Shown in pieces: positions 16,858-63,469 of a DNA stretch of 64,000 nucleotides. A program made the translations under genes and the position numbers. The notes beneath the pieces are model-generated. The model made no database searches. It was not told the origin of the DNA and saw only the letters and a program-made list of their open reading frames with translations. The stretch's first letter is position 1. Each line of letters opens with the position of its first letter. The DNA comes from Alphaproteobacteria bacterium (lineage in GTDB: Bacteria; Pseudomonadota; Alphaproteobacteria; UBA828), in contig JAJDUK010000005.1 of NCBI GenBank assembly GCA_022826665.1, positions 55,262 to 119,261 of the forward strand. The letters are read 5' to 3'.

Positions 16858-16934
16858 TGGCGCGCCCGGCAGGACTCGAACCTGCGACCCCAAGCTTAGA
16901 AGGCTCGTGCTCTATCCGGCTGAGCTACGGGCGC
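16858..16934 (-). tRNA. tRNA-Arg (anticodon UCU)
   Basis: The reverse complement folds as a canonical cloverleaf. Acceptor GCGCCCG/CGGGCGC, D-arm GCTC/GAGC, anticodon stem CGAGC/GCTTG with loop CTTCTAA (anticodon TCT), T-arm GCAGG-TTCGAGT-CCTGC, encoded CCA. Confidence 0.85.
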
Positions 16935-18015: not shown

Positions 18016-18147
18016 TCTCACTGCCAGATCGGCGCCTTCAATAAGTCCCCTTTTGACAAAATATCTTAAGTTTCGTTTCTGCCGACTGTTACCATCCGAA
18101 GCTTGCAGTTCCCACTGGAATCATCAAATTCTCTTGATGGTCCCTCT

Positions 18148-19374: not shown

Positions 19375-19580
19375 AGGAGGCTGCGCGGAACCGGACCTGC
19401 GCTATCATGCGGCGCCGACAGGGAGAGAACTCCGGGCTAGCGCACATCAAGTCCTTCTGTGGCGTTTGCTGTCCTCTCCTGCCGCAGATAATATCCAACG
19501 TAATCAGTAGGATATCTCCAAACGACGATTCTTGCAGTCACCCGAAAGCTCCGCTAGTCTCATTCATAACGTGGGACAGA

Positions 19581-27669: not shown

Positions 27670-29438
27670 TAATCGACCCTTCCCACAAAGTCCAAACCCA
27701 CCCGAGACAGTGAAGCCCCCAGTTTGTGCAGCAGATTCAATGCATACTCGTAGCGCAGCTGACCGACAACTCGCACTTCTTGTTCCACAAAGCTAAGATT
27801 ACCGTTCGCTGATCTCGTCGACCCTATGGTCAACATTCTTGTGCTAGCAGGGTCGAGAGAAAATAGTCCCTTATTCTTGGCGTAAACAAAGCTCAAAACG
27901 GGCTGGGCATTTCTTTGACTGGTAAACAGATATGACCTATTCTCGCGCCCGTCCAGGTTCAAGAACACACAGCGTCCTTCATTTATTTCATCTGGCCTTG
28001 GCACCGCGCGTGTATCTCTGTGCAGCTTTACCGCGATGAACGGCAGCCACTCCCCGAAGCGGTCACGACGTTCAGCTCCGCCTTGACCAGGTACCAAGTC
28101 GCAGGCCGGGCTCAAACACACCCAGTAATCATCGCCACTCTGAAAGACATGTCCAGTAGTTAAGTGACGTCCTCCGGGGGGTCTGCTGCATGCGAGTACG
28201 TTGTGCTCGATCAATGCTGTCGTTTTTTCCGATTGTTCAGTGAGATCAACCTGAAAGCGTCTATTGCACACTTGTTTGCTGTTCTCACCGTTTGAGTTTT
28301 CAAATTGCACCAGTTCATCGGCGAAGTCACTGACACTTGGGATCACCTCATCAATAAGCAGCTCTGCGTGCCATTTCACGCTTTCTGAAATGTATTGAAG
28401 GCGCACGTCACTGCTCGCGTCCAAGAGCCTGCTGTACCAATAGGCAAGTGCACGGCGTCGAGCAAGAACGTGCTCCTGAACAGGAACACCTTGTTCGTCT
28501 ACCTCCGCCCGCAACCGCGACAAAAGCAGCCGAGAAGGCGTTGGATTCCATCCCGAAAGCGCTTGACTCAGTCGTTGCAAGAGATCGTCGTGCTCTCCCT
28601 TACGAGCAAACGCTATGAAAATGGAACCACTCTGAATCCAATAAGGGTCGGATAGAGCCCACGCAAACTCTCCAACATAGTTGCTGTGCAGGCTCTCCGC
28701 CAATGCCCTTTCCCGCATGACAAGCGCGTAGATTAGCAACGTGCGACGATCATCCTCATCCAAGCCGACGTCGACGCAAAGTGCGTGAAATTCCGCAAAG
28801 GGCTGCTCCGCCGCCTCCATCGTGCCAAACACTTGACCAGGCTCTCGACGGTATTCGAGATATGCCTCCGTCCCAATGCTAGCCAAGAGCGCGTCTTCGA
28901 ACCCCTCCCGTTCGAGCTCCGCTTCATCCAACAGACGCTGGGCTGCTTCGGCGCCAGCACCGCCGCGGGTTAGGTCCTGAGATGCCGAGAGAAGACCGAT
29001 GCGTACCTGCTGAAACACTTCATCCAGCTCTAGGGATGTGTAAATGATTACCAAGTTGAAGTGCTGATTGCCGGCGACATTGCGCAAAATTTCGATTGCT
29101 CTTGAGCCGTCTTCTCGCCGAGTCCGGTCTAACTCATAGTCCAGGACTAACAAGTCCGATTGATGCAAATGCCGTGCAACCTCCCTCGCGCCCTCCTCAG
29201 GTACGTTCTGTCCGTCGTGAATATCCAGTAGGAGCGGCGTATCTCTATCCCGAAACTGCCTTATCAGCTCTCGTACCCGATCTGGCGATTCGCGCCATCT
29301 CTTTTCAACACCTTGGTCCGATTCTGGAGCAGCCAATATGTCGCTATACGTCGGATAGTCATCATCTACGATGAGAACCGAACGAATGGGATCAACATAG
29401 GCTTTTCCTATGAACGCATCGTAGGACTCACACATCAC
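27669..29438 (-). CDS. receiver-like (CheY-fold candidate) N-terminal domain protein with large uncharacterised C-terminal domain
   Basis: N-terminus IRSVLIVDDDYP...TPLLLDIHDGQ...DLLVLDYEL...NLVIIYTS resembles beta1 acidic pair, phospho-acceptor Asp and beta4/beta5 of REC domains, but is degenerate. C-terminal 430 aa has no recognisable motif. 11-nt overlap with the upstream GHKL gene. Confidence 0.5.
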   Translation of the reverse strand: MMCESYDAFIGKAYVDPIRSVLIVDDDYPTYSDILAAPESDQGVEKRWRESPDRVRELIRQFRDRDTPLLLDIHDGQNVPEEGAREVARHLHQSDLLVLDYELDRTRREDGSRAIEILRNVAGNQHFNLVIIYTSLELDEVFQQVRIGLLSASQDLTRGGAGAEAAQRLLDEAELEREGFEDALLASIGTEAYLEYRREPGQVFGTMEAAEQPFAEFHALCVDVGLDEDDRRTLLIYALVMRERALAESLHSNYVGEFAWALSDPYWIQSGSIFIAFARKGEHDDLLQRLSQALSGWNPTPSRLLLSRLRAEVDEQGVPVQEHVLARRRALAYWYSRLLDASSDVRLQYISESVKWHAELLIDEVIPSVSDFADELVQFENSNGENSKQVCNRRFQVDLTEQSEKTTALIEHNVLACSRPPGGRHLTTGHVFQSGDDYWVCLSPACDLVPGQGGAERRDRFGEWLPFIAVKLHRDTRAVPRPDEINEGRCVFLNLDGRENRSYLFTSQRNAQPVLSFVYAKNKGLFSLDPASTRMLTIGSTRSANGNLSFVEQEVRVVGQLRYEYALNLLHKLGASLSRVGLDFVGRVD

Positions 29439-51461: not shown

Positions 51462-54400
51462 ATGCTCGACGCCCCGCAGGCGCCGGACGCTCTCGCGCGT
51501 CCGCTTCCTCCCGCCATCGCCTCCGACACGTCCGCAACGCCGGCCCGCCCCGTCGTGGGCGATGCCCTGTTCGCCGCGGCCCAAACCCTGCTGCCGGTGC
51601 TGGAGGCCGGCCGGTCCCTCGACGCCGCGACGCTGCGGGACGCCATGACGGACACTTTCGGCGCGTCCGACTCCGAGGGCGCCTGGGTCTGGAAGGACGC
51701 CTACGAGGCCGCCGAAGCAGCCGTCGTGAACTTCATGCAGCGTTACGGCCGGGGCATGCGCCGGGCCGCCGGCGACGGCGGGCCGCGCCGCATGCTGGCG
51801 ATGCTGGAGGCCCTCGCGGCGCTGGAGCCCTCCCACACCAGGCGCTCCGAGGAGCAGGTGCGGCTCCAGCAGTTCTCGACGCCGCTGCCGCTCGCCTATG
51901 CCGCGCTCCAGGCCGCCGCGATTCGGCCGGGCGACATCGTGCTGGAGCCCTCGGCCGGCACCGGCATGCTGGCTGTGATGGCGCAGTGCGCGCTTGGCAA
52001 TTCCGCCGCCGGCAATCTCCATCTCAACGAATACGCTCGCGTCAGGGCACGGTTGCTGACACGGCTGTTCCCCGAGGCGGTGGTCACCGCGTTCAACGCC
52101 GAGACCATCGCGGATTGGCTGCGCGATGTCCGGCCCACCGTGGTGCTGATGAACCCGCCGTTTTCGGCGACGCCGGGGGTGCATCGCATCACCCGCGACG
52201 CCGACCTCCGGCATGTCCGCTCGGCCGCCTCCATGCTGCCGCCCGGCGGGCGCCTGGTGACCATCACATCCGCCCATTGCGCGCCCGGCGACACCGTCGG
52301 CCGTCTCGATCCCCCGGCCCGCTGCGTCTTCACCATGGCCATCGACGGCAGCGCCTATGCCCGCCGGGGCACCGCCTTTGACACCCGTCTCACCGTGCTG
52401 GAGCGCGGCGACGGACCCGACGTGGAGCTGGACGGGACAGCCCGCGCGGCCAACGCCGGCGAGCTGCTCGACGCGGTTATTTCGCGGGTGCCGCCTCGGT
52501 CACCCATCACTGTGCCGTCGGTCCCGGCCGGTCCTGCGCGCGACCTGTTCGGCAAACCGGTCGCCCCCGCGAAGCGGCGGGGTCCCAAGTCCGCCTCGAC
52601 CCCCGAGACCCGGCAGGCCCATGACTGGGGGGCGGTTTCGGAGCTGGTCGTCGAGACCGGGCCGGTCGATGCCGCGGCAGATGCCACTGCCAACGACGCC
52701 GGCCCCTACGCACCCTGGCGGCCGGGCGTCGTTCGTGTGCCGGGCGCGGTCGAGCATCCGACGCCGCTGGTGCAGTCCGCCGCCATGGCCGCCGTCCCGC
52801 ATCCCGCGCCGGCCTGGCGCCCGATGCTGCCGGAACGCGTGGTGACGGACGGCATGCTGTCCGACGCCCAGCTCGAGAGCGTCGTGCTGGCGGGGGAAGC
52901 CCATTCCCGCCATCTCGCCGCGGAGTACCGGATCGGATCCCAGTGGGAAACAGTCCACCGCTGCTCGAAGGACGGCGAGGACGGCAACGACGAGGAGGTC
53001 GATACCTCCCTCGTCACCCAGGAGAACGAGACCCTGTCGGAGCCGGTGCGCTTCCGCCGGGGCTGGATGCTGGGCGACGGCACCGGATGCGGCAAGGGCA
53101 GGCAGGTCGCCGCCATCATCCTCGACAACCGGCTGCGCGGCAGGAAGCGCGCCCTCTGGCTGTCGCAGTCGGACAAGCTGCTGGAGGACGCGCGTCGCGA
53201 CTGGACGGCGCTCGGTGGGCTGGACAGCGACATCATCCCGCTGGGCAATTTCCGCCAGGGGATGGAGATCCCGCTCGATGCGGGCATCCTGTTCGCGACA
53301 TACGCCACGCTGCGCTCGCCGTCCCGCCAGGGCAAGCCCTCGCGGCTGGAGCAGATCGTGGAATGGCTGGCCGGCTCGCTCGACGAGGAGGACCGCCACG
53401 CCTTCGACGGAGTGATCGTCTTCGACGAGGCGCACGCCATGGCGAACGCCGCCGGCTCCAAGTCCGAGCGCGGCGAGACCAAGCCGTCCCAGCAAGGTCG
53501 CGCCGGCCTGCGGCTCCAGAACGCCCTGCCGGACGCCCGCATCGCCTATGTCTCGGCCACCGGCGCGACGACGGTGCCGGGATTGGCGTATGCGGGTCGT
53601 CTGGGCTTGTGGGGCGCTGGCGAGACGCCATTCGAGAAGCGCGTCGAGTTCGTCTCCGCCATGGAGGCCGGCGGCGTCGCCGCGATGGAAGTCGTTGCAA
53701 GGGACCTGAAGGCGCTCGGTCTCTACCAGGCGAGAGCCTTGGCCTATGACGGGATCGAGGTCGACATCCTCGAACACCCGCTCACCCCTGAGCAGCGGCG
53801 CATCTACGACTCCTATGCCGGCGCCTTCAAGGTGATCCACGCCAACATCGAGGAGGCCCTGAAGGCCACCGGCATCGTCCAGGGCGAGGACACGCTGAAC
53901 AAGAACGCCAAGGCGGCCGCGCTCTCCGCCTTCGAGGGCACCAAGCAGCGCTTCTTCGGCCATCTTCTGACCGGCATGAAGTGCCCCTCGACGATCCGCG
54001 CGATCGAGGCCGACCTCGCCGCCGGCCGGTCGGCGGTCGTCCAGCTCGTGTCCACGGGCGAGGCATTGATGGAACGCCGCATCGCCGAGGTCCCGGCTTC
54101 CGAGTGGGACGACCTCAACATCGACCTCACGCCCCGGGACGCGATCCTGTCCTACCTGATGCACGCCTTCCCGGTGCAGTTGCAGGAGCCGTTCACCGAC
54201 GACGGCGGCAATCTCCTCAGCCGGCCCGCCAGGGACGCCGACGGCAACCCGGTGATCTGCAAGGAGGCCGAGGACCGGCGCGACGCGCTGATCGAGAAGC
54301 TGGCGGCGCTGCCGCCGGTGCCGACGGCGCTCGACCAGATCGTGCAGAAGTTCGGGCACGAGGCGGTCGCGGAGGTCACTGGCCGGTCGCGGCGCGTGCT

Positions 54401-55946
54401 CAGGATCACGGACGCCAAGGGCGAACGCCTCTCGCTGCGCAGCCGGCCCGCTTCTGCCAACCTCGCCGAGACCGCCGCATTCATGGACGGCGAGAAGCGC
54501 ATCCTCGTGTTCTCCATGGCGGGCGGCACGGGCCGCAGCTACCACGCCGACCTGTCCTGCGGGAACACCGAGCGCCGCATCCATTACTTGCTGGAGCCGG
54601 GCTGGCGCGCGGACCAGGCCATCCAGGGGCTCGGTCGCACCCACCGCACGCACCAGGCCAGCGCGCCGCTGTTCCGGCCCGTCACCACGGACGTGAAGGG
54701 CGAGCGCAGGTTCATCGCCACCATCGCACGGCGGCTCGACTCGCTCGGGGCCATCACGCGCGGCCAGCGCGACAGCCAGACCGCCATGGGCGGCAGCGAC
54801 GCCGCTCTGTTCCGCGAGAGCGACAATCTCGAGAGCGTCTATGCCAAGGCCGCATTGCGGCAGTTCTACGGCGCGCTCTGGCGCGGTTCCATCCAGGGCT
54901 GGAACGTTGAACGCTTCCAGGTTTCGACGGGTCTCAAGATCGTGCACGAGGGCGGGCTCAAGGACGACCTGCCGCCCATGCCGAAGTTCCTAAACCGGCT
55001 GCTGGCGCTGCCCATCGCCGAGCAGAACCAGCTTTTCGCCGAGCTGGAGGCGCGCATCGCGTCCAACATCGAGCAGGCCATCGAGGCCGGCAGCTACGAG
55101 GTCGGGGTCGAGACCGTGACCGCCGACTCGCTGGTAATCGCCGGCCGGGAAACCCTCTACGAGCATCCCGGCACTGGGGCGGCGACCGAGCTGGTCGAGA
55201 TCGTCCGCCGCAACAAGCTGGTGCCGCTGACCGCCGAGGACGCGCTGGAGATCGGCGAACGGGAGCCGGGACCGGACGGCAAGCCGCGCCTCGCCGTCAA
55301 CGCCCGCTCGAAGCGTGCCGCGGTCATCCTTCCGGCCGCGTCGCGGATGCTGGACGACGGCGGGGTGAAGGAGCGGGTGCGGCTTCTCCGTCCCGCGACC
55401 GGCGAGAGCATGGCGAAGGCCGAGCTCGACGCCTCCAACTGGCGCCGGGCCGACCAGGCACAGTGGCGGCGCATCTGGGACGCCGAGATCGCCGGCCTGC
55501 CGTCCCACCGGGACTCGCGCTTCTGGCTCGCCTCCGGCCTGCTGCTGCCCGTCTGGGACCGGCTGCCGGCCGAGAACATGCGGGTCCGCCGGCTCACCAG
55601 CGATGACGGCATCTCCCTCATCGGGCGCGTGCTGGACGCCGAGCAGGTGCGTGCCGTGCGCGCCGGGTTCGGCCTCGACGGCGGTCCCGCCATGACCGGC
55701 GCGGAGGCCTTCGCGGCAGTCATGGAGCGCGGCAACGCGCTCGCGCTCGCCAACGGCTGGCGGCTTGCCCGCCGGCGCCTGATGGGCCGCAACCGGATCG
55801 AGCTTGAGGGGCCGGCGGACACCGACCTGCCGGCGCTCCGGCGCATGGGATGCACGGTCGAGATTGTCTCGTTCCGGGCCCGGATATTCGCGCCCAACGC
55901 CGGCGCGATGGAACGCATCCTCGACCGCTGGCCGCTCGCCGCGTGA
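51462..55946 (+). CDS. N6-adenine/N4-cytosine-type DNA methyltransferase fused to SNF2/DEAH-box superfamily-2 helicase (ICE orphan MTase-helicase)
   Basis: 1494-aa ORF. VLEPSAGTGML (motif I) and VVLMNPPF (motif IV, NPPF) in the N-terminal 300 aa. GDGTGCGKGRQ (Walker A) and VIVFDEAHAM (DEAH) in the central helicase domain. Confidence 0.75.
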   Translation: MLDAPQAPDALARPLPPAIASDTSATPARPVVGDALFAAAQTLLPVLEAGRSLDAATLRDAMTDTFGASDSEGAWVWKDAYEAAEAAVVNFMQRYGRGMRRAAGDGGPRRMLAMLEALAALEPSHTRRSEEQVRLQQFSTPLPLAYAALQAAAIRPGDIVLEPSAGTGMLAVMAQCALGNSAAGNLHLNEYARVRARLLTRLFPEAVVTAFNAETIADWLRDVRPTVVLMNPPFSATPGVHRITRDADLRHVRSAASMLPPGGRLVTITSAHCAPGDTVGRLDPPARCVFTMAIDGSAYARRGTAFDTRLTVLERGDGPDVELDGTARAANAGELLDAVISRVPPRSPITVPSVPAGPARDLFGKPVAPAKRRGPKSASTPETRQAHDWGAVSELVVETGPVDAAADATANDAGPYAPWRPGVVRVPGAVEHPTPLVQSAAMAAVPHPAPAWRPMLPERVVTDGMLSDAQLESVVLAGEAHSRHLAAEYRIGSQWETVHRCSKDGEDGNDEEVDTSLVTQENETLSEPVRFRRGWMLGDGTGCGKGRQVAAIILDNRLRGRKRALWLSQSDKLLEDARRDWTALGGLDSDIIPLGNFRQGMEIPLDAGILFATYATLRSPSRQGKPSRLEQIVEWLAGSLDEEDRHAFDGVIVFDEAHAMANAAGSKSERGETKPSQQGRAGLRLQNALPDARIAYVSATGATTVPGLAYAGRLGLWGAGETPFEKRVEFVSAMEAGGVAAMEVVARDLKALGLYQARALAYDGIEVDILEHPLTPEQRRIYDSYAGAFKVIHANIEEALKATGIVQGEDTLNKNAKAAALSAFEGTKQRFFGHLLTGMKCPSTIRAIEADLAAGRSAVVQLVSTGEALMERRIAEVPASEWDDLNIDLTPRDAILSYLMHAFPVQLQEPFTDDGGNLLSRPARDADGNPVICKEAEDRRDALIEKLAALPPVPTALDQIVQKFGHEAVAEVTGRSRRVLRITDAKGERLSLRSRPASANLAETAAFMDGEKRILVFSMAGGTGRSYHADLSCGNTERRIHYLLEPGWRADQAIQGLGRTHRTHQASAPLFRPVTTDVKGERRFIATIARRLDSLGAITRGQRDSQTAMGGSDAALFRESDNLESVYAKAALRQFYGALWRGSIQGWNVERFQVSTGLKIVHEGGLKDDLPPMPKFLNRLLALPIAEQNQLFAELEARIASNIEQAIEAGSYEVGVETVTADSLVIAGRETLYEHPGTGAATELVEIVRRNKLVPLTAEDALEIGEREPGPDGKPRLAVNARSKRAAVILPAASRMLDDGGVKERVRLLRPATGESMAKAELDASNWRRADQAQWRRIWDAEIAGLPSHRDSRFWLASGLLLPVWDRLPAENMRVRRLTSDDGISLIGRVLDAEQVRAVRAGFGLDGGPAMTGAEAFAAVMERGNALALANGWRLARRRLMGRNRIELEGPADTDLPALRRMGCTVEIVSFRARIFAPNAGAMERILDRWPLAA

Positions 55947-56037
55947 CTCGCGGAGAATTCACCCGTTCAATGCCCGGCCGGGATACCTATTGCCGGCCGG
56001 GCGGCGGCCGGAGCCGCCGCAATCGAAGGAGAACCCC

Positions 56038-56307
56038 ATGACCGCGCAGACCCTGCCGGACAATCCGAATTTCTGTTTCTGCCCGGCCTACGACGTCGAG
56101 ACCGAGGTGCAGCAGATCAGAATCGTCATCGAAGGCCTCGCCGGGCACGTCCCGACCGCGCTCATCTCCCTCGACCTCGACGACGCCCTCAGCATCTGCG
56201 ACAAGCTGAACCGCCGGCTTGGCCTCGACCGGGAAGCTTGGACCGCCATGGTCGCCGCCTCCATGCGCGCCGAGGACGAGGACCCCGAGAGCGACCCCTG
56301 GCATTGA
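56038..56307 (+). CDS. hypothetical small protein (89 aa)
   Basis: ATG at 56038 by frame arithmetic, with an AAGGAG RBS. Confidence 0.35.
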   Translation: MTAQTLPDNPNFCFCPAYDVETEVQQIRIVIEGLAGHVPTALISLDLDDALSICDKLNRRLGLDREAWTAMVAASMRAEDEDPESDPWH

Positions 56308-56317
56308 GTCCGGCCCC

Positions 56318-56334
56318 CTGCTGCGCAGCCGGCC
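56318..56334 (+). repeat. 17-bp direct repeat copy 1 (CTGCTGCGCAGCCGGCC, contains 10-bp palindrome GCTGCGCAGC)
   Basis: Exact 17-mer seen three times in the same orientation. This copy lies 11 bp after the stop of the upstream small gene. Confidence 0.6.
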
Positions 56335-56565
56335 CGGCATCATCCAGGACCCCGGTTGGACGGGCGGCCGCTATCCGCAGACCATCCCGTCGCCGTCGCG
56401 GTCGTAGGTATCTGTATGGGCCGAGTGGTTGCGCGACAACGGCGTGATGCCGTCACGCATGGCTCCATCGAGGGGCAATCGAGGACGCCTGGATAACATT
56501 GGCCGGGTATGTGCAGATTCCACCGTCGTGGATGTGCCATGGAGCACTGAACGGGAGGAAGCGGC

Positions 56566-57747
56566 ATGCGGCGCCATCTTGTGGTTTGCACCGACGGAAC
56601 TTGGAACACGCCTGATCGGCGTGACCGCGGACGGATTGTCCCGAGCAACGTGGTCAAGGTGGCACGGGCGGTTGCCGGCTTCAATACCTCCGCTATCGAG
56701 CAAAAGGTCTATTACGATGCCGGCGTTGGCACGGGGGATTGGTGGGATCGAATCAAGGGCGGCGCCTTCGGATTCGGGCTATCGCAAAACGTGAAACAGG
56801 CCTACGTGGCCCTCGGGGAGATCTTCGCACGGGGTGACAAAATATTCCTGTTCGGCTTTTCGCGCGGTGCCTATACGGCGCGCAGTCTCGCTGGCCTGAT
56901 CGGACTGTGCGGAATTCCGGATAGTCAGAAAGGCAATGTCACGAGGATCGCCGAGGAGGCATTCAGGATTTACCGCTTAAGCCTTCGATCGCTCGACAGA
57001 GCAAATCAAGCGGAACAACACATCGAGACGTACTCCCACACGAAGAACGGCCGTGTTCTCAACAAAATCCACTTCATCGGCGTCTGGGATACCGTGGGCG
57101 CCCTCGGAATCCCGCTCGGGTTGTTCAGGGCATACAACCGGTACCGATTCCAGTTCCACGACACAGATCTGGGTGGCCATATCGAGAGAGCGTACCACGC
57201 GCTGGCGATCGACGAACGCCGCCGACCGTTCAAACCGACGCTATGGTTAGCCGCCAATGCACCGACGAAACAGGTCGTGGAACAGTTCTGGTTTCCGGGG
57301 GTTCATACCAACATCGGGGGCGGCTATATCGACCATGGGCTGTCGGATCGGGCGTTTCTGTGGATGTGCATCAAGGCGCGGGACGCAGGTCTCGGGTTCA
57401 AGGCCGACTACATGAACCTTCGCGTGATCCCCGACTATCACGGCGAGCTGAGAAATTCCCGGGTGGGGTTTTACAGACTGCTGCCTGCGAAAACGCGTTT
57501 GATCGGGACGACCAAAGCCGTGGGAGAGGCGATACATTACTCGGCGGAGGAGCGGTTCGAACATGCGACGGAACGCAACTACCAGGAGGGGCACGCGAGC
57601 AAGAACCTGGGCCCGCTCTTAAAGGATGCCGGGAAGATTGGAGGGCCGAGTGTGGCGCCTGCACTGAGAGCGGAGAAAGCGTTTCACAGCCGCCTGTCTG
57701 GGTACTTTTGGAAGGATGGCGGAGGATCGCCCAAGTCGTTCCCGTAA
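56566..57747 (+). CDS. DUF2235 domain alpha/beta hydrolase (Tle1-like phospholipase fold)
   Basis: LVVCTDGTWN N-terminus, GFSRGAYTAR (GxSxG nucleophile elbow), GVWDTVGALG. Lower GC than neighbours. Confidence 0.7.
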   Translation: MRRHLVVCTDGTWNTPDRRDRGRIVPSNVVKVARAVAGFNTSAIEQKVYYDAGVGTGDWWDRIKGGAFGFGLSQNVKQAYVALGEIFARGDKIFLFGFSRGAYTARSLAGLIGLCGIPDSQKGNVTRIAEEAFRIYRLSLRSLDRANQAEQHIETYSHTKNGRVLNKIHFIGVWDTVGALGIPLGLFRAYNRYRFQFHDTDLGGHIERAYHALAIDERRRPFKPTLWLAANAPTKQVVEQFWFPGVHTNIGGGYIDHGLSDRAFLWMCIKARDAGLGFKADYMNLRVIPDYHGELRNSRVGFYRLLPAKTRLIGTTKAVGEAIHYSAEERFEHATERNYQEGHASKNLGPLLKDAGKIGGPSVAPALRAEKAFHSRLSGYFWKDGGGSPKSFP

Positions 57748-57838
57748 CAGGCTATGCGCGCCAGCGCACGAAGCCCGCTGAAGAGATATTGAGAATTTGG
57801 GGTGTTGCCGTTCTGGCCGAACGGACGGACGGTGTCGT

Positions 57839-57855
57839 CTGCTGCGCAGCCGGCC
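57839..57855 (+). repeat. 17-bp direct repeat copy 2 (CTGCTGCGCAGCCGGCC)
   Basis: Exact copy about 90 bp after the stop of the DUF2235 gene. Confidence 0.6.
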
Positions 57856-58048
57856 CGAATCCCCCGAGCCTATCCCGCCGTACGCCGCGCACAGGCAGGC
57901 CCGGCGCACGCACGGCGACCGTCGGAGGGGCGGGCAGTTCCCGAAGGCCAACCCAGTACCGCTAGTCTCCGCCGGCGGTGGGAAACCGTGGATCGCCGCC
58001 TCCGAGACCGTCTGACTCAAAGCCCGCCGCGCGACTGCGCCGTCTTCC

Positions 58049-58065
58049 CTGCTGCGCAGCCGGCC
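58049..58065 (+). repeat. 17-bp direct repeat copy 3 (CTGCTGCGCAGCCGGCC)
   Basis: Exact copy about 210 bp after copy 2. Confidence 0.6.
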
Positions 58066-58582
58066 AAGCGCCGTCTCCGGTCAGTCCCTCCAGCCAAGCC
58101 ACCACCACACGATCCAGACCGGTAGGCGACCGCAACGGCGCGACCCGCGATCGAGAGCGGACTGAGCAGCCCGGCCGGTAGCGTCACCGCCACCGTCGCC
58201 GCGCCGGTAGCCGAGCCGCCACAGCCTCCAGCTTCCAAGCGCGAGCGGCAGGCCGCAGGGGACGAACGGCGCCAGCGTCAGCCCCTCCATCGCCATCGTC
58301 GCCGGCCACGGCCCCAGCCGCCCTGCCGCCACCGCGTCCGTCCACCCGAACCGCACGGCCACCTGCGCCACGATCCCGGCCGGCAGCCAGAGCAGCGCCA
58401 GCGGCCAGAACCCGTGACGGCCGATCCATCCGCGCCCTTCCATGCCGTATCCCTGCACCGGACGGGGGCGACGTTCAAGCCAGCTCGGACCAAATATCGC
58501 CGGAGAGGCGGAGAAGAGCGTGCTGGGAGCGAAGCCGCTGACGGAGAGGGAGTGGCGGCAGTCGCAACCGGGGAGATCGACC

Positions 58583-59119
58583 ATGCCGACATTGCGATAT
58601 GCGGGGATTGGGGCGCGTGCGACGCCGGTGGCCGTGCTGGCGGACATGACTGTGCTGGCGGGATGGCTGGCCCGGACCGGCTGGCATCTTTCGAGCGGTG
58701 GGGCGAATGGAGCCGACACTGCGTTCGCCGAGGGTACGCCCGCCGGGCAGAGGACGATCTGGCTGCCGTGGCGGGACTGTAACGGGAATCGGGGGACGGA
58801 CTGCCGGGTGTTGTCGGCTGAGGCGATGGCGGAGTGCATCGAGATCGCGGCGCCCCTGCATCCGGCGTGGGAGCGGTGTTCGCCGGCCGTCCGCATGCTG
58901 CATGCCAGGAACGCGGCGGTGTTGCTTGGCGACACGCTGGGCCGGCCCGTCGATGCAGTCGTGTGCTGGAGCGAACGCGGCGCGGTTACCGGAGGCACTG
59001 GCATGGCTATCCGTATCGCCGAGGCCCGCGGCATCCCGGTGCTGAACCTGGGATCGATGACCCCGCGTGCCGTCTGCGAGCGCCTGGCCGCAATCCGCCG
59101 CGCCGTCCATCGGTCATAG
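58583..59119 (+). CDS. SLOG superfamily (DprA/Smf/LOG-like Rossmann fold) protein
   Basis: YAGIGARATP...LSSGGANGADTAFAEG (GGAxGxD) with IWLPW. ATG at 58583 by frame arithmetic. The 414-aa antisense ORF 58081..59325 is judged spurious. Confidence 0.55.
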   Translation: MPTLRYAGIGARATPVAVLADMTVLAGWLARTGWHLSSGGANGADTAFAEGTPAGQRTIWLPWRDCNGNRGTDCRVLSAEAMAECIEIAAPLHPAWERCSPAVRMLHARNAAVLLGDTLGRPVDAVVCWSERGAVTGGTGMAIRIAEARGIPVLNLGSMTPRAVCERLAAIRRAVHRS

Positions 59120-59220
59120 AGGAAGAGTGAAGCGCCTGCCGGGCGAGTGTCCGGCAGGGCGGAGGGAGTGGGTCCCCCGCGCCGATGCCGGGCAGGGCAA
59201 CGGCAGAGGAGGTCCCGCCC

Positions 59221-59454
59221 ATGTTTCATCCCGACACATCCCTCGATCACCTGGCCGAGCTCGGCATCGACCCGGCGGCTGTCCGCGAGGTCATCGACGA
59301 CGAGCGCGCGATCCGCTGTCCGCACCGCGCCGTCGTCTATCCCGCATACGGCTTCGCAAGCCTTTCCCCGGAACCGGCGTTGGAGATGGTCCTTCAGGAC
59401 GCGGCGCCGGCGGAGCCCTGGGACCCGGCGTCGTCGCTTCCCCCGGCCGATTAG
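59221..59454 (+). CDS. hypothetical small protein (77 aa)
   Basis: In-frame ATG (MFHPDTSLDHLAELGIDPAAVREV). No motif. Confidence 0.3.
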   Translation: MFHPDTSLDHLAELGIDPAAVREVIDDERAIRCPHRAVVYPAYGFASLSPEPALEMVLQDAAPAEPWDPASSLPPAD

Positions 59455-59564
59455 AGGTGGAGGAGGGCTTGGAGAGATTGAACGGAAGGGGGGTCGGGGG
59501 AGTGAACCCGGCCTCCGGCCGTTCGGAACCCATCGTCATCAACCAGGAACCACAGGAGAGCGTC

Positions 59565-60026
59565 ATGCCCTTCGGAAAGAATCACGCGGAACTGGTCGGC
59601 CGCCTCGGCGACGACGTCACCGTCAACCACCTCAGGAACGGCGGCCGCGTCGCCAACATGAGCATCGCGACCGACGAGTCGTACATCGACAAGAACTCGG
59701 GCGAGAAGGTCGACAAGACCGAGTGGCACCGGGTCGTCACCTTCCAGGACGGGCTGATCGACATGCTCCAGAGGCACGCGACGAAGGGCCGCTTGATCCA
59801 CGTCGAGGGCAAGCTCCAGACTCGGCGCTGGAAGAAGGACGGCGAGGACTCCTGGCGCTTCTCGACCGAGATCCTCGTCGTGCCGGGCCACAGGGTGCAG
59901 TTCTACGACAAGCCCAACGGCAGCAGCGCGCCGGCCGCGGACGCCCAGGCACCCGCGAACGGCACGGACATGCCGGACGGCGGCGCCCCGGCGCAGACCG
60001 GCGACATCGAGGACCCGCCCTTCTAG
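59565..60026 (+). CDS. ssb: single-stranded DNA-binding protein
   Basis: OB-fold blocks GRLGDDVTVNHLRNGGRVANMSIATDESY, KTEWHRVVTF and VEGKLQTRRWKKDGEDSWRFSTEIL. Gly/Pro/Asp-rich tail ending DIEDPPF (acidic tip). Confidence 0.85.
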   Translation: MPFGKNHAELVGRLGDDVTVNHLRNGGRVANMSIATDESYIDKNSGEKVDKTEWHRVVTFQDGLIDMLQRHATKGRLIHVEGKLQTRRWKKDGEDSWRFSTEILVVPGHRVQFYDKPNGSSAPAADAQAPANGTDMPDGGAPAQTGDIEDPPF

Positions 60027-60191
60027 GCGCTTCCCGCCCATTCCTCCTCCCTCCCGCCTCGGGGGCCGGCGCTTCGGCGCCGGTCCCCCCTTTTGCAGCC
60101 GAACCGGAGTCCCCCAATGTCCGTTGGGCGCGCGGCGACGGAGGCGGAGAGGAGCGCCGGAGGGGCGTTCCATTGCCCAGGGAGAGAGAGC

Positions 60192-60776
60192 ATGCGCGAC
60201 AACACCGAGAGCGTCTTCGCCCGGGGGGCCGTCATCGTCCCCGACTTCGTCACCCCGGCCGAGGAGGAGCGCATCCTGCTCCGCATCGGCGCCGCGCCCT
60301 GGCTCACCGAGCTGCGACGGCGCGTCCAGCATTACGGCTACCGCTACGACTACCGCGGCGCCAGCCGCCCGGTCCCCGCCGCGCCGTTTCCGCGCTGGGC
60401 CGGGGTCATGGCGGACCGGCTGCGGGACCGCTTCGGGAGCGCGCTGCCGGTGCAGTGCATCGTCAACGAGTACCGCCCCGGCCAGGGGATCGGCATGCAC
60501 GCCGACCATCGCGACTTCGGCGACGTCGTCGCCTCGCTGTCGCTCGCCGCCGACTGGCCGATGCGCTTCCGGCCGCGCTCCGTCCGCCCCTACGCCCGCG
60601 ACGGCCTGCCGGGCGACGAGGTCGCCGTGCTGCCCCGCCGCTCGGTCCTGGTCCTCGCGGGCGAGGCGCGCCGGGACTGGATGCACGGCATCGACCGCGC
60701 CGACACCGCCGGCGCGGCCGCCACCCGCGTCTCCGCCACCTTCCGGACGCTCGCGTCCGGCGCCGGCCGGCCGTGA
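60192..60776 (+). CDS. 2OG-Fe(II) oxygenase, AlkB-like
   Basis: IVNEYRPGQGIGMHADHRD (H-x-D) with a downstream His in WMHGIDR and RxS-type 2OG anchoring (RVSATF). Confidence 0.6.
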   Translation: MRDNTESVFARGAVIVPDFVTPAEEERILLRIGAAPWLTELRRRVQHYGYRYDYRGASRPVPAAPFPRWAGVMADRLRDRFGSALPVQCIVNEYRPGQGIGMHADHRDFGDVVASLSLAADWPMRFRPRSVRPYARDGLPGDEVAVLPRRSVLVLAGEARRDWMHGIDRADTAGAAATRVSATFRTLASGAGRP

Positions 60777-60826
60777 GCCGGCCCGACCCGTCCTCTTCCA
60801 TCTTCCCCCAACCAGGAGCACCGCCC

Positions 60827-61909
60827 ATGATCCGCTTCACCCAGGGCGACCTCTTCGCCTCCGGCTGCGAGGCTCTCGTCAATCCCGTCAACTGCGTCGG
60901 CGTGATGGGCAGGGGGCTCGCCCTCCAGTTCCGGCACCGCTTCCCGGCCAACTACGAGGCCTATCGGCACGCCTGCGCGCGCCGCGAGGTCCGGCCCGGG
61001 CTCTGCTTCGTCTTCGACGCCGGCGCCGGGCCGGCGCGCTTCGTCGTCAACTTCCCAACCAAGCGCCACTGGCGCGACCGCAGCCGCATTGAGGACATCG
61101 CCGCCGGGCTCGACGACCTCGCCGGCATCCTCCGCCGCCGCGCCATCGGCTCCGTCGCGATCCCGCCGCTCGGCTGCGGCCTGGGCGGACTGCCCTGGCC
61201 CGCCGTCCGCTCGCTGCTGGTCGACCGCCTCGCATCCTGCTCCGGCGTCTCGATCATCATCTTCGAGCCTGGCGGACCGGAGCCGAGGCGCGCTTGCGGC
61301 GGGGCGAAGCGCGGCAGGGCCGGAGGGAGTCCGCCGCCGGCAACGGAGGATGACGGAATGCGTATCTACCACCGCGACGAGGTTTGCCCGTTCCGGTTTA
61401 CCCGGGCGGCCTGGGGCGAATTCAGCAATTTCGCGCCGCTGACGGCGCCGATCGCCGCCGGCCCGTGGACGTTTGCGACGTCCGAGCACCTGTACCAGGC
61501 GGCGAAGTTCGGCGCCGCCCCGGCGGTGCAGCGCCGGATCGCCGGCGCGCCGACGGCGCGCGAGGCGGCCGCCATCGGGCGCGGCGAGCGCACCGGCGTC
61601 GATCCCCGCTGGAACGAGCAGCGGGTGAACGTCATGCGCTGGGTGCTGCGCATGAAGCGCGAGACCAACGCCGCCGCGATCGATGCCGCCCTCGCCGCGA
61701 CCGGCGAGCGCGCCATCGTCGAGGTCTCGACCCGCGACCCCTGGTGGGGCGCCAGGCCGGACGGCGACCGCTATCGCGGCGCGAACGTGCTCGGCCGGCT
61801 CTGGATGGAGCTCCGCCAGCAGCTGTGCGACGGCGATCCCGCCGCGCGCGCCGCCGCGTGGGCCGGGCGCATCCGCGTCGGCCGGCTGGCCGATGCGCCG
61901 CGCGCCTGA
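60827..61909 (+). CDS. macro domain fused to NADAR (YbiA-like) domain protein
   Basis: N-terminal LFASGCEALVNPVNCVGVMGRGLALQF (macro glycine loop). C-terminal EFSNFAP...SEHLYQAAKF (NADAR ExxYQxxK block). AGGAG RBS 9 nt upstream of ATG 60827. Confidence 0.7.
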   Translation: MIRFTQGDLFASGCEALVNPVNCVGVMGRGLALQFRHRFPANYEAYRHACARREVRPGLCFVFDAGAGPARFVVNFPTKRHWRDRSRIEDIAAGLDDLAGILRRRAIGSVAIPPLGCGLGGLPWPAVRSLLVDRLASCSGVSIIIFEPGGPEPRRACGGAKRGRAGGSPPPATEDDGMRIYHRDEVCPFRFTRAAWGEFSNFAPLTAPIAAGPWTFATSEHLYQAAKFGAAPAVQRRIAGAPTAREAAAIGRGERTGVDPRWNEQRVNVMRWVLRMKRETNAAAIDAALAATGERAIVEVSTRDPWWGARPDGDRYRGANVLGRLWMELRQQLCDGDPAARAAAWAGRIRVGRLADAPRA

Positions 61910-62051
61910 CCGGCGCGCTCGCCGGCCTTCTTCTTTCTGACCGTCCTGGCCTCGCGACCCCGCTTCGCGCGGCCCGCTCGCCCTCCTGCGCCGGCCGGAG
62001 GGGAGGCCGGCCGGTATCGGGCATCTCGCTCGCCTTGGAAGGAAGTCCCGC

Positions 62052-63053
62052 ATGCAGCACCAACCGTCTCCCGCCGCCGGCATCGCCGCGGCGCTCGCAG
62101 CGCGCGCCGAGGAGGTGTGCAGGCAATATCTACCGCATGGCCGTCGCCAGGGCCGCTACTGGATCTGCGGCGACCTCGACGGCGCTCGCGGACGCTCGCT
62201 CTTCGTCCGCCTCTCCGGCTCCGGCAAGCCCGGTGGGTGGACGGATGCAGCAACGGGGCAGCACGGCGATCTGCTCGACCTGATCCGCTACCGCTCAGGA
62301 GCGCCGACGCTGCGCGCGGCGCTCGACGAGGCGCGGCGCTTCCTCGCCCTGCCGACTTCGCCGGCGACGGCCTCGGATGCGCCCTACGACGCGACCGAGG
62401 CGGCGCGCCGCCTGTGGCGGCGCTGCCGCGCCATCGACGGCAGCCACGCCGAGCGGTATCTCCACGCCCGGGGGCTGTCGCGCTGCCGCTTCGCGACGCT
62501 GCGCTTCCATCCCGAGCTTCGCTATCGCGAAGGCTCGTCCGTGCGCCGGTTACCGGCGCTGGTCGCCGCCGTCACCGGCGGCGACGGCGCCATCCTCGGC
62601 GTGCAGCGCACCTGGCTCGACCCGCGCTCCCCCGCCAAGGCGGGCGTCGCTACGCCGCGCAAGGCGCTCGGCCGCATCCACGGCCTCGCGGTGCGCTTCG
62701 GCGCGCCCTCCGACATCGCTCCGCTCGTCGTCGGCGAGGGCATCGAGACGGTGCTCTCGCTGGTCACCGCCGTGCCGGAGATCACGGCTGCAGCAGCGCT
62801 CTCGGCCGGGAGCCTCGGCGCGTTCGCGCCTCCCTCCGGCCTCGCGCGGCTGGTGATCGCCCGCGACAACGACGAGGACGGCGCGCTCGCGGCCGAGCGC
62901 CTCGCCCGGCGCTGCGCGCGGGCGGGCATCGCCGCCACCGTCATCGTGCCCGCCGGCAACGACTTCAACGACGACCTCGTCGCGCTCGGCTCAGCGGCGC
63001 TCTGCGCCCGCTTCGCGCCGCTGTTCCGCTCCGCCTGCGCCTCCGGCTCATAG
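62052..63053 (+). CDS. toprim domain protein (DUF7146/primase-like, ICE type)
   Basis: VVGEGIETVLS (toprim Glu) and IARDNDEDG (DxD). Confidence 0.65.
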   Translation: MQHQPSPAAGIAAALAARAEEVCRQYLPHGRRQGRYWICGDLDGARGRSLFVRLSGSGKPGGWTDAATGQHGDLLDLIRYRSGAPTLRAALDEARRFLALPTSPATASDAPYDATEAARRLWRRCRAIDGSHAERYLHARGLSRCRFATLRFHPELRYREGSSVRRLPALVAAVTGGDGAILGVQRTWLDPRSPAKAGVATPRKALGRIHGLAVRFGAPSDIAPLVVGEGIETVLSLVTAVPEITAAAALSAGSLGAFAPPSGLARLVIARDNDEDGALAAERLARRCARAGIAATVIVPAGNDFNDDLVALGSAALCARFAPLFRSACASGS

Positions 63054-63133
63054 GCCGGACCGATATCCCGCTCCGGTGGAGGAAGAGAAGAGCGGAGGGT
63101 CGGGCAAGCCGACCCGAGGAGTGGAGGGAGTCC

Positions 63134-63469
63134 ATGAGAGCCATCGTCAATCTGAAGCACGAGCCGGCGCTGCGCGACGAGTTCGAATACGCGCTTGTCG
63201 TCGATAACACCGTGCTGATCGACCGCCGCACCAGGTGGGGCAACCCGTTCAGAATCGGCGAAGACGGGTCGCGGGATGAGGTGATCGCCCGCTACCGCGC
63301 GCATCTATGGCAACACATCCAGGCAGGCGACGTTTCGCTGGAAGAGCTCGCAGAGCTCGACGGGTGCTGGCTGGCCTGTTGGTGCGAGCCGCTGCCCTGT
63401 CATGGAGATGTGCTCGCCAAGGCGGCGGCGTGGGCCTCCGGGGTGTTGGCCGATCGGAAGGGTTCGTGA
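63134..63469 (+). CDS. DUF4326 domain protein
   Basis: RWGNPF...WLACWCEPLPCHGDVL Cys/His cluster typical of DUF4326. In-frame ATG at 63134. Confidence 0.55.
   Translation: MRAIVNLKHEPALRDEFEYALVVDNTVLIDRRTRWGNPFRIGEDGSRDEVIARYRAHLWQHIQAGDVSLEELAELDGCWLACWCEPLPCHGDVLAKAAAWASGVLADRKGS

What the first reader, a model, noticed from the sequence alone, without database searches (positions are those of the whole stretch)
56318..58065. Three exact copies of a 17-bp palindrome-containing motif flanking a lower-GC DUF2235 hydrolase cargo gene
Seen in sequence: CTGCTGCGCAGCCGGCC occurs at about 56318, 57839 and 58049, all in the same orientation and all intergenic. The first two bracket the DUF2235 gene (56566-57747), whose GC is visibly lower than its neighbours. 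The core GCTGCGCAGC is a perfect 10-bp palindrome.

Inference: The arrangement suggests a cassette inserted by site-specific recombination at a repeated site, or a repeated protein-binding operator. Alternatively it is a REP-like element family.
Basis: seen in the sequence. Interest (0 to 1): 0.55.

Follow-up and report, generated by a model that had tools for sequence, protein, structure and literature searches.

The report
Junction motif of ICE cargo hotspot
The three identical 17-base repeats are copies of a short, one-directional junction sequence that separates swappable cargo gene modules at one fixed spot in a family of conjugative elements, so it probably marks where modules are recombined in and out, by an enzyme not yet identified.

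Summary
CTGCTGCGCAGCCGGCC occurs exactly at 56318, 57839 and 58049, same strand, intergenic, far beyond chance. A fourth 15-mer at 54434 is only the codons of a conserved Sno peptide.

The window carries a TrwB/TrwC-type integrative conjugative element (ICE). In 80 related loci, the interval between a conserved 89-aa gene (p89) and a 178-aa gene (p178) is a cargo hotspot of 80 bp to about 9 kb. The motif is confined to this hotspot and always in one orientation. It occurs once in an empty site (L017) and is absent from nine minimal backbones.

Hotspots cut at the motif fall into modules (TacAT, HigBA, AbiE, NnrS and others) that recur with different neighbours and never invert. Left and right flanks assort independently.

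In the window, the array is c1, a DUF2235 module, c2, a decayed HigA remnant, c3, then m120.

It is not a REP element, an intrinsic terminator, a CRISPR array or a transposon footprint. The palindrome is not the conserved feature.

Most likely it is a recombination junction resembling integron attC sites or Acinetobacter dif modules. No recombinase was found. Passive crossover at a conserved cis-element of m120 remains a serious rival.

The parts
56316..56336 (+). Motif copy c1 (CCCTGCTGCGCAGCCGGCCCG). It is the left junction, lying between the p89 stop and the DUF2235 module.
   Evidence: Exact 17-mer. Homology of other loci to the window's p89 side ends at 56307-56346. It lies at the same position as the single copy in the empty site L017.
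57839..57857 (+). Motif copy c2 (CTGCTGCGCAGCCGGCCCG). It is the junction between the DUF2235 module and a decayed module.
   Evidence: Exact 17-mer. The homology of the DUF2235 module with four other contexts stops around 57838-57841, at the left edge of c2.
58047..58065 (+). Motif copy c3 (CCCTGCTGCGCAGCCGGCC), followed by AAGCGCCGTC. It is the left terminus of the conserved motif-m120-p178 block.
   Evidence: Exact 17-mer. Homology of other loci resumes at 58045-58051. Long blast matches between loci start within about 5 bases of the motif's left edge 593 times.
56357..57838 (+). DUF2235/Tle1-like cargo module: about 210 bp of 5' region, the ORF 56566-57747, and a 91-bp 3' tail. G+C is low.
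   Evidence: Pfam PF09994. G+C 0.55-0.61. The 5' region, ORF and 3' tail are 70-81% identical at nucleotide level to modules in L203-L206, which are other conjugative-element contexts. The module is absent from all 80 related hotspot loci.
57971..58015 (+). 3' remnant of a HigA-like (HTH_37) antitoxin gene with its stop codon, part of the 193-bp interval between c2 and c3.
   Evidence: 81% identity over 111 bases to L034 15671-15780, the end of the HigA gene plus its flank up to the motif. Pfam identifies the L034 pair as Gp49 plus HTH_37.
56038..56307 (+). p89, a conserved 89-aa backbone gene that forms the left border of the hotspot. Its function is unknown.
58081..58443 (-). m120, a small predicted membrane protein. 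Its 3' end abuts the motif in most loci that carry the motif.
   Evidence: Gene call. In module family F0 (26 loci) the motif is directly followed by the m120 stop. No family hit.
58583..59119 (+). p178, a conserved backbone gene with a conserved leader of about 100 bp. It forms the right border of the hotspot.
   Evidence: Maps of related loci. In minimal loci, p89 is followed by this leader after 80-200 bp.
51462..55946 (+). Sno (strawberry-notch type) methyltransferase-helicase, a backbone gene. It holds a coincidental coding copy of the 15-mer at 54434-54448.
   Evidence: Pfam AAA_34 and Helicase_C_4. The in-gene copy encodes LRSRPASAN, with free synonymous variation across 80 loci.

Best explanation
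The 17-mer is the core of a conserved, asymmetric junction sequence. Its consensus is ccT-GCTGCGC-a-GCCGGCC, with a weaker rightward extension CG-n-CG-y-C..C, about 18-30 bp in all.

It belongs to one cargo hotspot, between the backbone genes p89 and p178, of a family of TrwB/TrwC-type integrative conjugative elements. These are found in uncultured Alphaproteobacteria and, more distantly, in Binatia, Thermodesulfobacteriota and Gammaproteobacteria.

Direct copies of the sequence separate independent cargo modules, and exchange between elements takes place at it. The window shows a three-site array: p89 | c1 | DUF2235 module | c2 | decayed HigBA module | c3 | m120. This is derived from a one-site state such as L017.

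Shown here:
- the hotspot;
- the confinement and single orientation of the motif;
- the empty site;
- homology breakpoints at the motif edges;
- independent assortment of left and right flanks;
- fixed module orientation.

Inferred: the exchange is conservative recombination within the shared sequence. I think it is most likely catalysed by a site-specific enzyme that recognises this sequence. The enzyme is unidentified; candidates are the element's TrwC relaxase, its P4-type integrase, or a host enzyme. The architecture resembles integron attC arrays or Acinetobacter dif modules.
For: - Empty site. L017 has a single copy, and both window flanks align to it.
- Breakpoints. Homology of other loci to the window ends at 56307-56346 and resumes at 58045-58051.
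- Distribution. Among 70 loci with both anchors, 50 have at least one copy (up to 3 mismatches). All 9 minimal loci (interval 204 bp or less) have none.
- Orientation. There are 75 copies (up to 2 mismatches) on the + strand, 11 of them the coding copy in Sno, against 5 on the - strand. Four of those 5 are the same sites in their perfect-palindrome variant. Almost all non-coding copies lie in the hotspot.
- Conservation. The core is kept at 93% or more at 13 of 15 core positions while the left flank is unalignable, in elements whose Sno proteins are only 75-93% identical.
- Modularity. Hotspots cut at the motif give modules that recur with different neighbours. Examples are F1 TacAT at first, second or third place, F13 AbiE after p89 or after F10, and F18 after F12 or F10.
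- Independent assortment. For pairs of copies from different loci, both flanks are similar in 38, the left only in 67 and the right only in 155.
- Fixed orientation. 793,837 aligned bases are in the same orientation against 10,800 opposite, and all of the latter involve the motif-less cargo of L008.
- Precision in the window. The right end of the DUF2235 module, defined from four other contexts, abuts c2 within about 3 bases.
Against: - No recombinase gene lies in or next to the hotspot, and none co-varies with the motif within 10 kb on either side. p89 has no recognisable fold.
- Many loci lack a copy at the left junction: cargo begins right at the p89 stop.
- Eleven loci have 0.5-6.4 kb between the anchors with no copy.
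- A DUF2235 homologue sits in the same hotspot of L205 without any motif and in the opposite orientation.
- The distance from the motif to the functional start of the same TacAT module varies from 4 to 46 bases.
- Long homology blocks start at the motif far more often (593) than they end there (about 34), so most copies behave as the left tip of the m120 block.
- In 13 loci a fixed three-box unit with conserved variant boxes (CCTACTGCGTAGCCGGCC and TGCTCCGCnGCCGGCC) precedes m120. This suggests an additional or different cis function.
- No excised circle or polymorphic empty site was found for this element.
Confidence: 0.55

Rival explanations
1. Passive homology patch. The motif is a cis-acting element of the m120 transcription unit, such as a 3'-end, regulatory or protein-binding signal, and is conserved for that reason. 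Because it is the only sequence shared between otherwise unrelated cargo, RecA- or annealing-type recombination between co-resident ICE copies happens to cross over there. No dedicated site-specific recombinase exists.
For: - The motif is nearly always adjacent to the m120 stop: 26 loci in family F0.
- Homology blocks start at its left edge 593 times but end at it only about 34 times.
- Minimal backbones lack both m120 and the motif.
- Internal copies often carry the m120-proximal flank CGCCGTCCGC.
- The three-box unit has box-specific conserved variants.
- Many host genomes hold several copies of the element, giving partners for homologous exchange.
- The backbone encodes SSB and a weakly DprA-like protein.
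- No recombinase was found.
Against: - 18-30 bp is at or below the usual minimum for efficient homologous recombination (established knowledge).
- Copies occur without m120. They flank a minus-strand 133-aa gene in L012, L038 and L045, and follow NnrS and TacT genes.
- No terminator-like feature is present, and folding is not better than shuffles.
- There is no covariation.
Confidence: 0.3
2. Repeated operator. A dimeric regulator binds the palindrome GCTGCGCAGC and controls transcription of the neighbouring cargo genes.
For: - The core is a perfect 10-bp palindrome in the window.
- Some loci carry a perfect 16-bp palindrome, CCGGCTGCGCAGCCGG.
- In some loci a promoter-like TTGCCG follows within 4-46 bases.
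Against: - The A that completes the palindrome is the least conserved core position (71%), while its partner T is kept at 95%.
- Every independent copy has the same orientation, which a symmetric site does not need.
- Copies sit 10-40 bases after stop codons rather than at fixed distances from promoters.
- c1 is 231 bases upstream of the DUF2235 start.
- No regulator gene is associated.
Confidence: 0.07
3. Target-site duplication. A transposon-like insertion of the DUF2235 segment into the motif duplicated 19 bases by staggered cleavage and fill-in.
For: - c1 and c2 share exactly 19 bases that flank a discrete foreign module.
- The module has the same right end in five contexts.
Against: - The module has no terminal inverted repeats and carries no transposase.
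- The same module in four other contexts (L203-L206), and a more distant homologue in L207/L208, has no such flanking repeat.
- The same repeat also bounds many unrelated modules in other loci, and the duplicated length varies.
- Its left end differs between contexts.
Confidence: 0.05
4. REP-like dispersed repeat family of the host genome, or a chance repeat in G+C-rich DNA.
For: The 17-mer alone is found in at least 120 metagenome contigs.
Against: - Those matches are single copies in unrelated DNA that reads like coding sequence. Only 3-4 of them lie in this ICE hotspot.
- Apart from the coding copy inside the Sno gene, there are no copies elsewhere in the 64-kb window, and only scattered 3-mismatch matches at about chance level in the flanks outside the hotspot in the 80 loci.
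- The motif travels with the element across host phyla.
- Chance is excluded by the shuffles.
Confidence: 0.02

Closest known systems
Integron gene-cassette arrays (attC sites, IntI integrase)
   Same: - Arrays of independently assorting modules, all in one orientation.
- Modules are separated by a repeated recombination-site-like sequence lying just 3' of genes.
- Toxin-antitoxin modules are frequent.
- Short, almost empty units occur between sites.
   Different: - The site is 18-30 bp, not 57-141 bp, and has no RYYYAAC/GTTRRRY boxes.
- Its palindrome is not conserved.
- No IntI-type integrase, attI or Pc is nearby.
- Modules carry their own promoters and may hold two genes or minus-strand genes.
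- The platform is an intergenic hotspot of an ICE.
dif modules of Acinetobacter plasmids (pdif sites, XerC/XerD)
   Same: - Discrete accessory modules are bounded by short sites (28 bp there).
- Modules are shuffled between related backbones.
- TA modules such as higBA are almost universal.
- The recombinase is not encoded next to the sites (PMC13141974).
   Different: - pdif sites have XerC and XerD arms around a 6-bp spacer and alternate in orientation, so modules can invert (PMC13141974).
- Here all copies are direct, modules never invert, and the sequence has no resemblance to dif.
Variable hotspots of SXT/R391 and other ICE families
   Same: - Cargo is inserted at fixed intergenic positions between conserved backbone genes.
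- Content differs between otherwise syntenic elements.
- Cargo is rich in TA and defence genes.
   Different: From my own knowledge, no repeated junction sequence is described for those hotspots. Here a conserved, oriented motif marks the module boundaries.
Relaxase-mediated oriT-specific recombination (TrwC of R388)
   Same: - The element encodes a TrwC-family relaxase.
- TrwC of R388 catalyses site-specific recombination between, and integration into, short oriT targets (PMC3264647).
- Such a strand-specific enzyme would explain the strict single orientation.
   Different: - No copy of the motif lies near trwB/trwC.
- The oriT of this element is unknown.
- There is no sequence resemblance to the R388 nic region (from my own memory of that sequence).
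- This is a candidate enzyme only.
Arrays of Xer-dependent integrated elements (IMEX) at dif
   Same: Successive integrations give arrays of elements separated by direct copies of a short site.
   Different: - Those use the chromosomal dif site and XerCD.
- Here the site is inside an ICE and is unlike dif.

Membership tests
ICE variable hotspot | Variable DNA at a fixed intergenic position between conserved, syntenic backbone genes of a conjugative element | tested here: met
   - The p89-p178 interval ranges from 80 bp to about 9 kb in 70 loci with conserved flanks.
- The element has a P4-type integrase, TrwB and TrwC.
Integron cassette array | attC sites of 57-141 bp with R''/L''-L'/R' boxes (RYYYAAC ... 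GTTRRRY) | tested here: not met
   The conserved block is 18-30 bp. It contains no GTTRRRY or RYYYAAC, and its left flank is unconserved.
Integron cassette array | IntI integrase with attI and Pc adjacent to the array | tested here: not met
   - The only tyrosine recombinase found in the window is a P4-type integrase 36 kb away, with Arm-DNA-bind_3, Phage_int_M and Phage_integrase domains.
- No gene family within 10 kb on either side is associated with the motif.
- Not every ORF of the window was scanned.
Integron cassette array | Modules between sites assort independently and keep one orientation | tested here: met
dif modules / Xer sites | 28-bp site with XerC and XerD arms, a 6-bp spacer and similarity to dif | tested here: not met
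   The consensus ccTGCTGCGCaGCCGGCCcGnCGyC has no inverted arms around a spacer. The lack of resemblance to dif is judged from memory of the dif consensus.
dif modules / Xer sites | Alternating site orientation that allows module inversion | tested here: not met
   All independent copies are direct. No module is inverted.
REP / BIME elements | Many copies dispersed in intergenic regions genome-wide | tested here: not met
   - Copies are confined to one hotspot; elsewhere in the window and in the 80 loci (1.7 Mb) there are only the coding copy inside Sno and about chance-level 3-mismatch matches.
- Metagenome matches are single and unrelated.
- Whole host genomes could not be scanned.
Intrinsic terminator | G+C-rich hairpin followed by a U tract | tested here: not met
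   - No terminator-like site lies in 55800-58700.
- Folding z-scores range from -1.0 to +1.1.
- No T run follows any copy.
Structured RNA family | Rfam match, or covariation supporting a conserved structure | tested here: not met
   - No meaningful Rfam hit.
- The RNAalifold covariation term is +0.33 on 13 copies of the three-box unit.
Transposon / IS insertion | Terminal inverted repeats, a transposase, and a target duplication of fixed length | tested here: not met
   - No terminal inverted repeats around the module.
- No transposase.
- The same repeat bounds unrelated modules.
CRISPR array | Repeats separated by unique spacers, with cas genes | tested here: not met
   The boxes spaced about 60 bp apart in 13 loci are separated by sequences conserved between loci, not by unique spacers. 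No cas genes appear among the gene calls.
oriT / nic site of the element's TrwC relaxase | The same sequence present at the element's functional oriT and nicked by the relaxase | tested here: inconclusive
   No copy lies within the 14-kb trwB/trwC region, but the oriT itself is not identified. Nicking cannot be tested with these tools.

The most novel reading that the evidence does not exclude
This ICE family carries a dedicated cassette-exchange system unlike integrons. A strand-specific enzyme recognises an asymmetric site of about 18-30 bp (GCTGCGCnGCCGGCC plus a 3' extension) and inserts, excises and shuffles promoter-bearing TA and defence modules at a single hotspot. The enzyme could be the element's own TrwC relaxase acting on secondary nic-like sites, or an unrecognised recombinase among the backbone proteins of unknown function.
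Probability: 0.3. Interest if true: 0.8.

Novelty: new variant of a known kind. Interest (0 to 1): 0.6.

Why it matters
How cargo enters the fixed hotspots of conjugative elements is largely unexplained. Here a hotspot comes with a recognisable, oriented junction sequence and a catalogue of modules that demonstrably reassort at it. That makes the mechanism testable with a 30-bp substrate.

If a dedicated enzyme acts on it, this would be a third kind of short-site module system, beside integrons and dif modules. It operates inside ICEs that are multi-copy and cross phylum boundaries in uncultured bacteria.

In practice, the motif gives a simple marker for delimiting accessory modules, mostly TA, abortive-infection and effector-like genes, in these elements.

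Tried and rejected
- **Rfam, terminator scan and folding.** Rfam search of 55800-58700, the promoter/terminator scan and folding of each copy gave nothing.
- **RNA structure of the three-box unit.** No covariation was found.
- **Functional in-gene copy or antisense pairing with Sno mRNA.** Rejected, because the copy is the codons of LRSRPASAN with free synonymous change.
- **CRISPR-like reading of the 60-bp periodic boxes.** Rejected, because the spacers are conserved between loci.
- **oriT or secondary nic site.** No copy lies near trwB/trwC; unresolved.
- **Search for a recombinase.** Pfam scans of 29 window ORFs found only the P4-type integrase. An association test of all ORF families within 10 kb on either side gave no convincing partner, best p = 6e-4 for a backbone variant.
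- **m120 and p89 homologues in PLSDB plasmids.** None. Megablast of 55000-59500 against plasmids also gave none.
- **Polymorphic empty site or alternative neighbourhood.** None on record for the identical p89 and m120 proteins.
- **Motif around DUF2235 homologues in other contexts.** Absent.
- **Half-site co-segregation.** A per-position test meant to place the crossover inside the motif was uninformative, because of indels in the flanks.
- **Literature search for the sequence itself.** It returned only primers and unrelated text.
Full report
**1. Observation**

CTGCTGCGCAGCCGGCC occurs exactly three times, at 56318, 57839 and 58049, all on the + strand. Allowing three mismatches gives six matches in the window against 1.14 expected, and no shuffle reached six. 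Words from this motif are the only words of 14 bases or more present three or more times in the 64-kb window.

All three copies are intergenic:
- c1 starts 11 bases after the stop of an 89-aa ORF (p89, 56038-56307).
- c2 starts 92 bases after the stop of the DUF2235/Tle1-like gene (56566-57747; PF09994).
- c3 ends 15 bases before the stop of a minus-strand 120-aa membrane ORF (m120, 58081-58443; gene calls).

The DUF2235 gene has G+C of 0.55-0.61 against about 0.70 around it.

A fourth 15-mer at 54434 lies inside the Sno helicase gene. It encodes the conserved peptide LRSRPASAN. In 80 relatives the peptide is kept while the codons vary freely (AGC/TCG, CTG/CTC, CCC/CCG). I therefore treat it as a coding coincidence.

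**2. Setting**

The window carries an integrated conjugative element. Its parts are:
- a P4-type tyrosine integrase at 19362-20753, 2.4 kb from a tRNA-Arg gene;
- a backbone of RadC, SRAP, Sno methyltransferase-helicase, p89, p178, p77, SSB, AlkB-like, Macro-NADAR, Toprim/DUF7146 and DUF4326;
- TrwC and TrwB genes about 9 kb beyond the window end.

The sequence comes from a metagenome scaffold. Megablast of 55000-59500 finds no plasmid match, and PLSDB plasmids encode no p89 or m120 homologue.

**3. Relatives**

A scan of one genome per species with the Sno protein returned 80 loci at 75-93% protein identity. They come from MAGs of Alphaproteobacteria (Rhodospirillales, Defluviicoccus, Thalassobaculaceae), Binatia, Thermodesulfobacteriota and Gammaproteobacteria. 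Several copies often occur per genome.

Mapping the window's proteins and the motif on these loci shows that Sno-p89 and p178-(p77)-SSB-...-Toprim-DUF4326 are syntenic. The p89-p178 interval varies from 80 bp to about 9 kb.
- Nine loci have the minimal state: p89, then 80-204 bp, then the conserved p178 leader, with neither motif nor m120.
- Fifty of 70 loci with both anchors have at least one copy of the motif (up to 3 mismatches).
- Eleven loci have 0.5-6.4 kb between the anchors without it.

In 1.72 Mb of loci, copies with up to 2 mismatches number 75 on the + strand and 5 on the - strand. Eleven of the 75 are the coding copy in Sno. Four of the 5 minus-strand matches are the same sites in a perfect-palindrome variant. 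Apart from the coding copies, nearly all lie downstream of p89.

The window's sequence left of c1 and right of c3 both align to it. Homology of other loci to the window stops at 56307-56346 and resumes at 58045-58051.

**4. Anatomy of the motif**

In 103 distinct copies, positions G3 C4 T5 C7 G8 C9 and G11 C12 C13 G14 G15 C16 C17 are kept at 90% or more. These copies were selected by allowing up to 3 mismatches to the core, which inflates the conservation figures within it. The A at position 10, which completes the 10-bp palindrome, is kept in only 71%, while its partner T is kept in 95%.
- Conservation extends weakly to the right (C18 G19 n C21 G22 y C24 .. C27).
- There is no conservation to the left.

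The element is therefore asymmetric. The palindrome is incidental, although a few loci have a perfect CCGGCTGCGCAGCCGG.

In 13 loci a conserved unit of about 185 bp precedes a variant m120. It holds three boxes about 60 bp apart: the canonical box, CCTACTGCGTAGCCGGCC, and TGCTCCGCnGCCGGCC. Each is followed by nnnGCCGTC, and no covariation supports an RNA structure.

No Rfam family, terminator-like site or unusual folding energy is associated with the window copies.

**5. Modules**

Cutting each hotspot at the motif and clustering the pieces gives families that recur in different places and with different neighbours.
- F1 (TacA/TacT) is first after p89 in four loci, second in four and third in three.
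- F13 (AbiEi/AbiEii) follows p89 in two loci and F10 in another.
- F18 follows F12 or F10 and precedes m120 or F1.
- F6 (HigB/HigA), F7, F12, F17 and F21 behave likewise.

Pfam identifies TacA plus GNAT, Gp49 plus HTH_37, AbiEi plus AbiEii, NnrS and GmrSD_C-Excalibur among the modules.

I compared the 40 bases on each side of every pair of copies from different loci. Both sides are similar in 38 pairs, the left only in 67 and the right only in 155. For example, the NnrS gene end plus motif is followed by four different sequences in L006, L007, L022 and L025.

Modules keep their orientation: 793,837 aligned bases are in the same orientation against 10,800 opposite. All of the latter involve the motif-less cargo of L008.

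Long homology blocks start within five bases of the motif's left edge 593 times but end at its right edge only about 34 times. Most copies therefore behave as the left tip of the motif-m120 block.

**6. The window's array**

The array reads p89 | c1 | DUF2235 module | c2 | 193 bp | c3 | m120.

The DUF2235 module is a discrete unit.
- Its 5' region (from about 56357), ORF and 91-bp 3' tail are 70-81% identical to modules in four other contexts:
  - L203, next to nikA-like and trwC genes;
  - L204, between alpA and an integrase;
  - L205, in the same Sno hotspot but in opposite orientation;
  - L206, a short contig from a sample of the same KELL22-1 series (a different SAMN accession).
- A more distant homologue (about 75% over the ORF only, no flank similarity) occurs in L207/L208.
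- Homology among the window and L203-L206 ends at the base before c2.
- None of the other contexts, L207/L208 included, has the motif.

The c2-c3 interval ends with the last 15 codons and the downstream flank of a HigA-like antitoxin, as in L034. An earlier HigBA module was therefore truncated at a breakpoint that is not a motif.

**7. What it is not**

- It is not a REP-like family. Copies are confined to one hotspot, and the 17-mer's other occurrences in metagenomes are single and unrelated.
- It is not an intrinsic terminator or a known RNA.
- It is not a CRISPR array.
- It is not a transposon footprint. There are no terminal inverted repeats and no transposase, and the same repeat bounds unrelated modules.
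- It is probably not a symmetric operator.

**8. Mechanism**

Shown:
- a conserved, oriented junction sequence specific to one ICE hotspot;
- single-copy and multi-copy states;
- modules that reassort at the junction without inverting.

Inferred: exchange is by recombination within the shared sequence.

I favour a sequence-specific enzyme, for three reasons. The core is nearly invariant in otherwise unalignable non-coding DNA, across elements from different phyla. The orientation is strict. And 18-30 bp is short for homologous recombination.

The enzyme is unknown. I tested the following:
- No recombinase lies near the hotspot or co-varies with the motif.
- p89 has no informative fold.
- The trwB/trwC region has no copy.

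TrwC-family relaxases are known to recombine short oriT targets (PMC3264647), so TrwC is a candidate worth testing.

The main rival is that the sequence is a cis element of m120 that merely provides the only shared homology for crossovers between the many co-resident copies. Several findings support it: the bias of blocks starting at the motif, the box-specific variants, the loci with cargo but no motif, and the variable spacing to module promoters.

**9. Comparison and novelty**

The architecture is closest to integron cassette arrays and to Acinetobacter dif modules. The latter are also rich in higBA-type TA modules and lack an adjacent recombinase (PMC13141974). It fails the defining features of both: site size and boxes, IntI, Xer arms and alternating orientation.

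It fits the general notion of an ICE hotspot, with the addition of a junction motif. I found no description of this sequence or of such a motif in ICE hotspots. I rate it a new variant of a known kind. It is moderately to highly interesting because it turns hotspot cargo exchange into a testable 30-bp problem.

Noticed in passing
window 54434-54450: A fourth copy of GCTGCGCAGCCGGCC(CG) lies inside the Sno gene. It encodes the conserved peptide LRSRPA, and relatives vary freely at synonymous sites. Most metagenome matches to the 17-mer look like the same kind of LLRSRP-type coding coincidence.
   Followed up: yes
window 56371-56410 (minus strand): A C-terminal remnant of an Excalibur-type calcium-binding domain (..YDRDGDGMVCG*) lies in the 5' region of the DUF2235 module. 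The same remnant travels with DUF2235 homologues in L203, L205 and L206. Intact GmrSD_C-Excalibur genes are hotspot cargo in L071, L073 and L074.
   Followed up: partly
window 57748-57838: A 91-bp 3' tail of the DUF2235 module is conserved in five contexts and has a sharply defined right end. It contains the hairpin CCGTTC-TGGCC-GAACGG (57808-57824). The left end of the module differs between contexts, a one-sided pattern I could not explain.
   Followed up: partly
L006, L019, L022, L023, L025, L027, L029, L032, L034, L058, L082, L007, L040 (e.g. L025 8529-8690): A conserved unit of about 185 bp lies downstream of a variant m120. It holds three motif-like boxes about 60 bp apart, and each box has its own conserved variant. 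After box 1 there is a variable hairpin followed by TTTCGG. The function is unknown.
   Followed up: partly
L003-L082: The ICE family is multi-copy within single MAG genomes, with up to five loci on contigs of one Binatia assembly. It spans Alphaproteobacteria, Binatia, Thermodesulfobacteriota and Gammaproteobacteria at 75-93% Sno identity.
   Followed up: no
window 26617-32391 (minus strand): A lower-GC3 block inside the element encodes a C-5 cytosine methyltransferase, a protein with a Response_reg_2 domain and a 987-aa protein with two HATPase domains. It looks like a defence-type island.
   Followed up: no
window 59565-63469: The backbone cluster holds SSB, an AlkB-like 2OG-Fe(II) oxygenase, a Macro-NADAR fusion, Toprim/DUF7146 and DUF4326. 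Further upstream (46.3-48.8 kb) the backbone also carries RadC and SRAP genes. The set resembles the anti-defence and DNA-processing genes of plasmid leading regions. However, trwB/trwC point towards it, so its order of entry during transfer is unclear.
   Followed up: no
L210 about 880-895 (upstream of trwB): A perfect 16-bp palindrome, CCCGGTCCGGACCGGG, lies in the 150-bp region between a divergent 116-aa gene and trwB. It is a possible oriT or terminator feature and is unrelated to the motif.
   Followed up: no
window 16858-20753: The tRNA-Arg(TCT) gene and the integrase are separated by an aminotransferase gene (18148-19374), whose end overlaps the called integrase start. The left boundary of the element was not determined.
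   Followed up: no
L013 9996-10900: Two m120-like genes lie in tandem, each preceded by its own motif copy. This suggests that motif plus m120 can itself behave as a repeatable unit.
   Followed up: no
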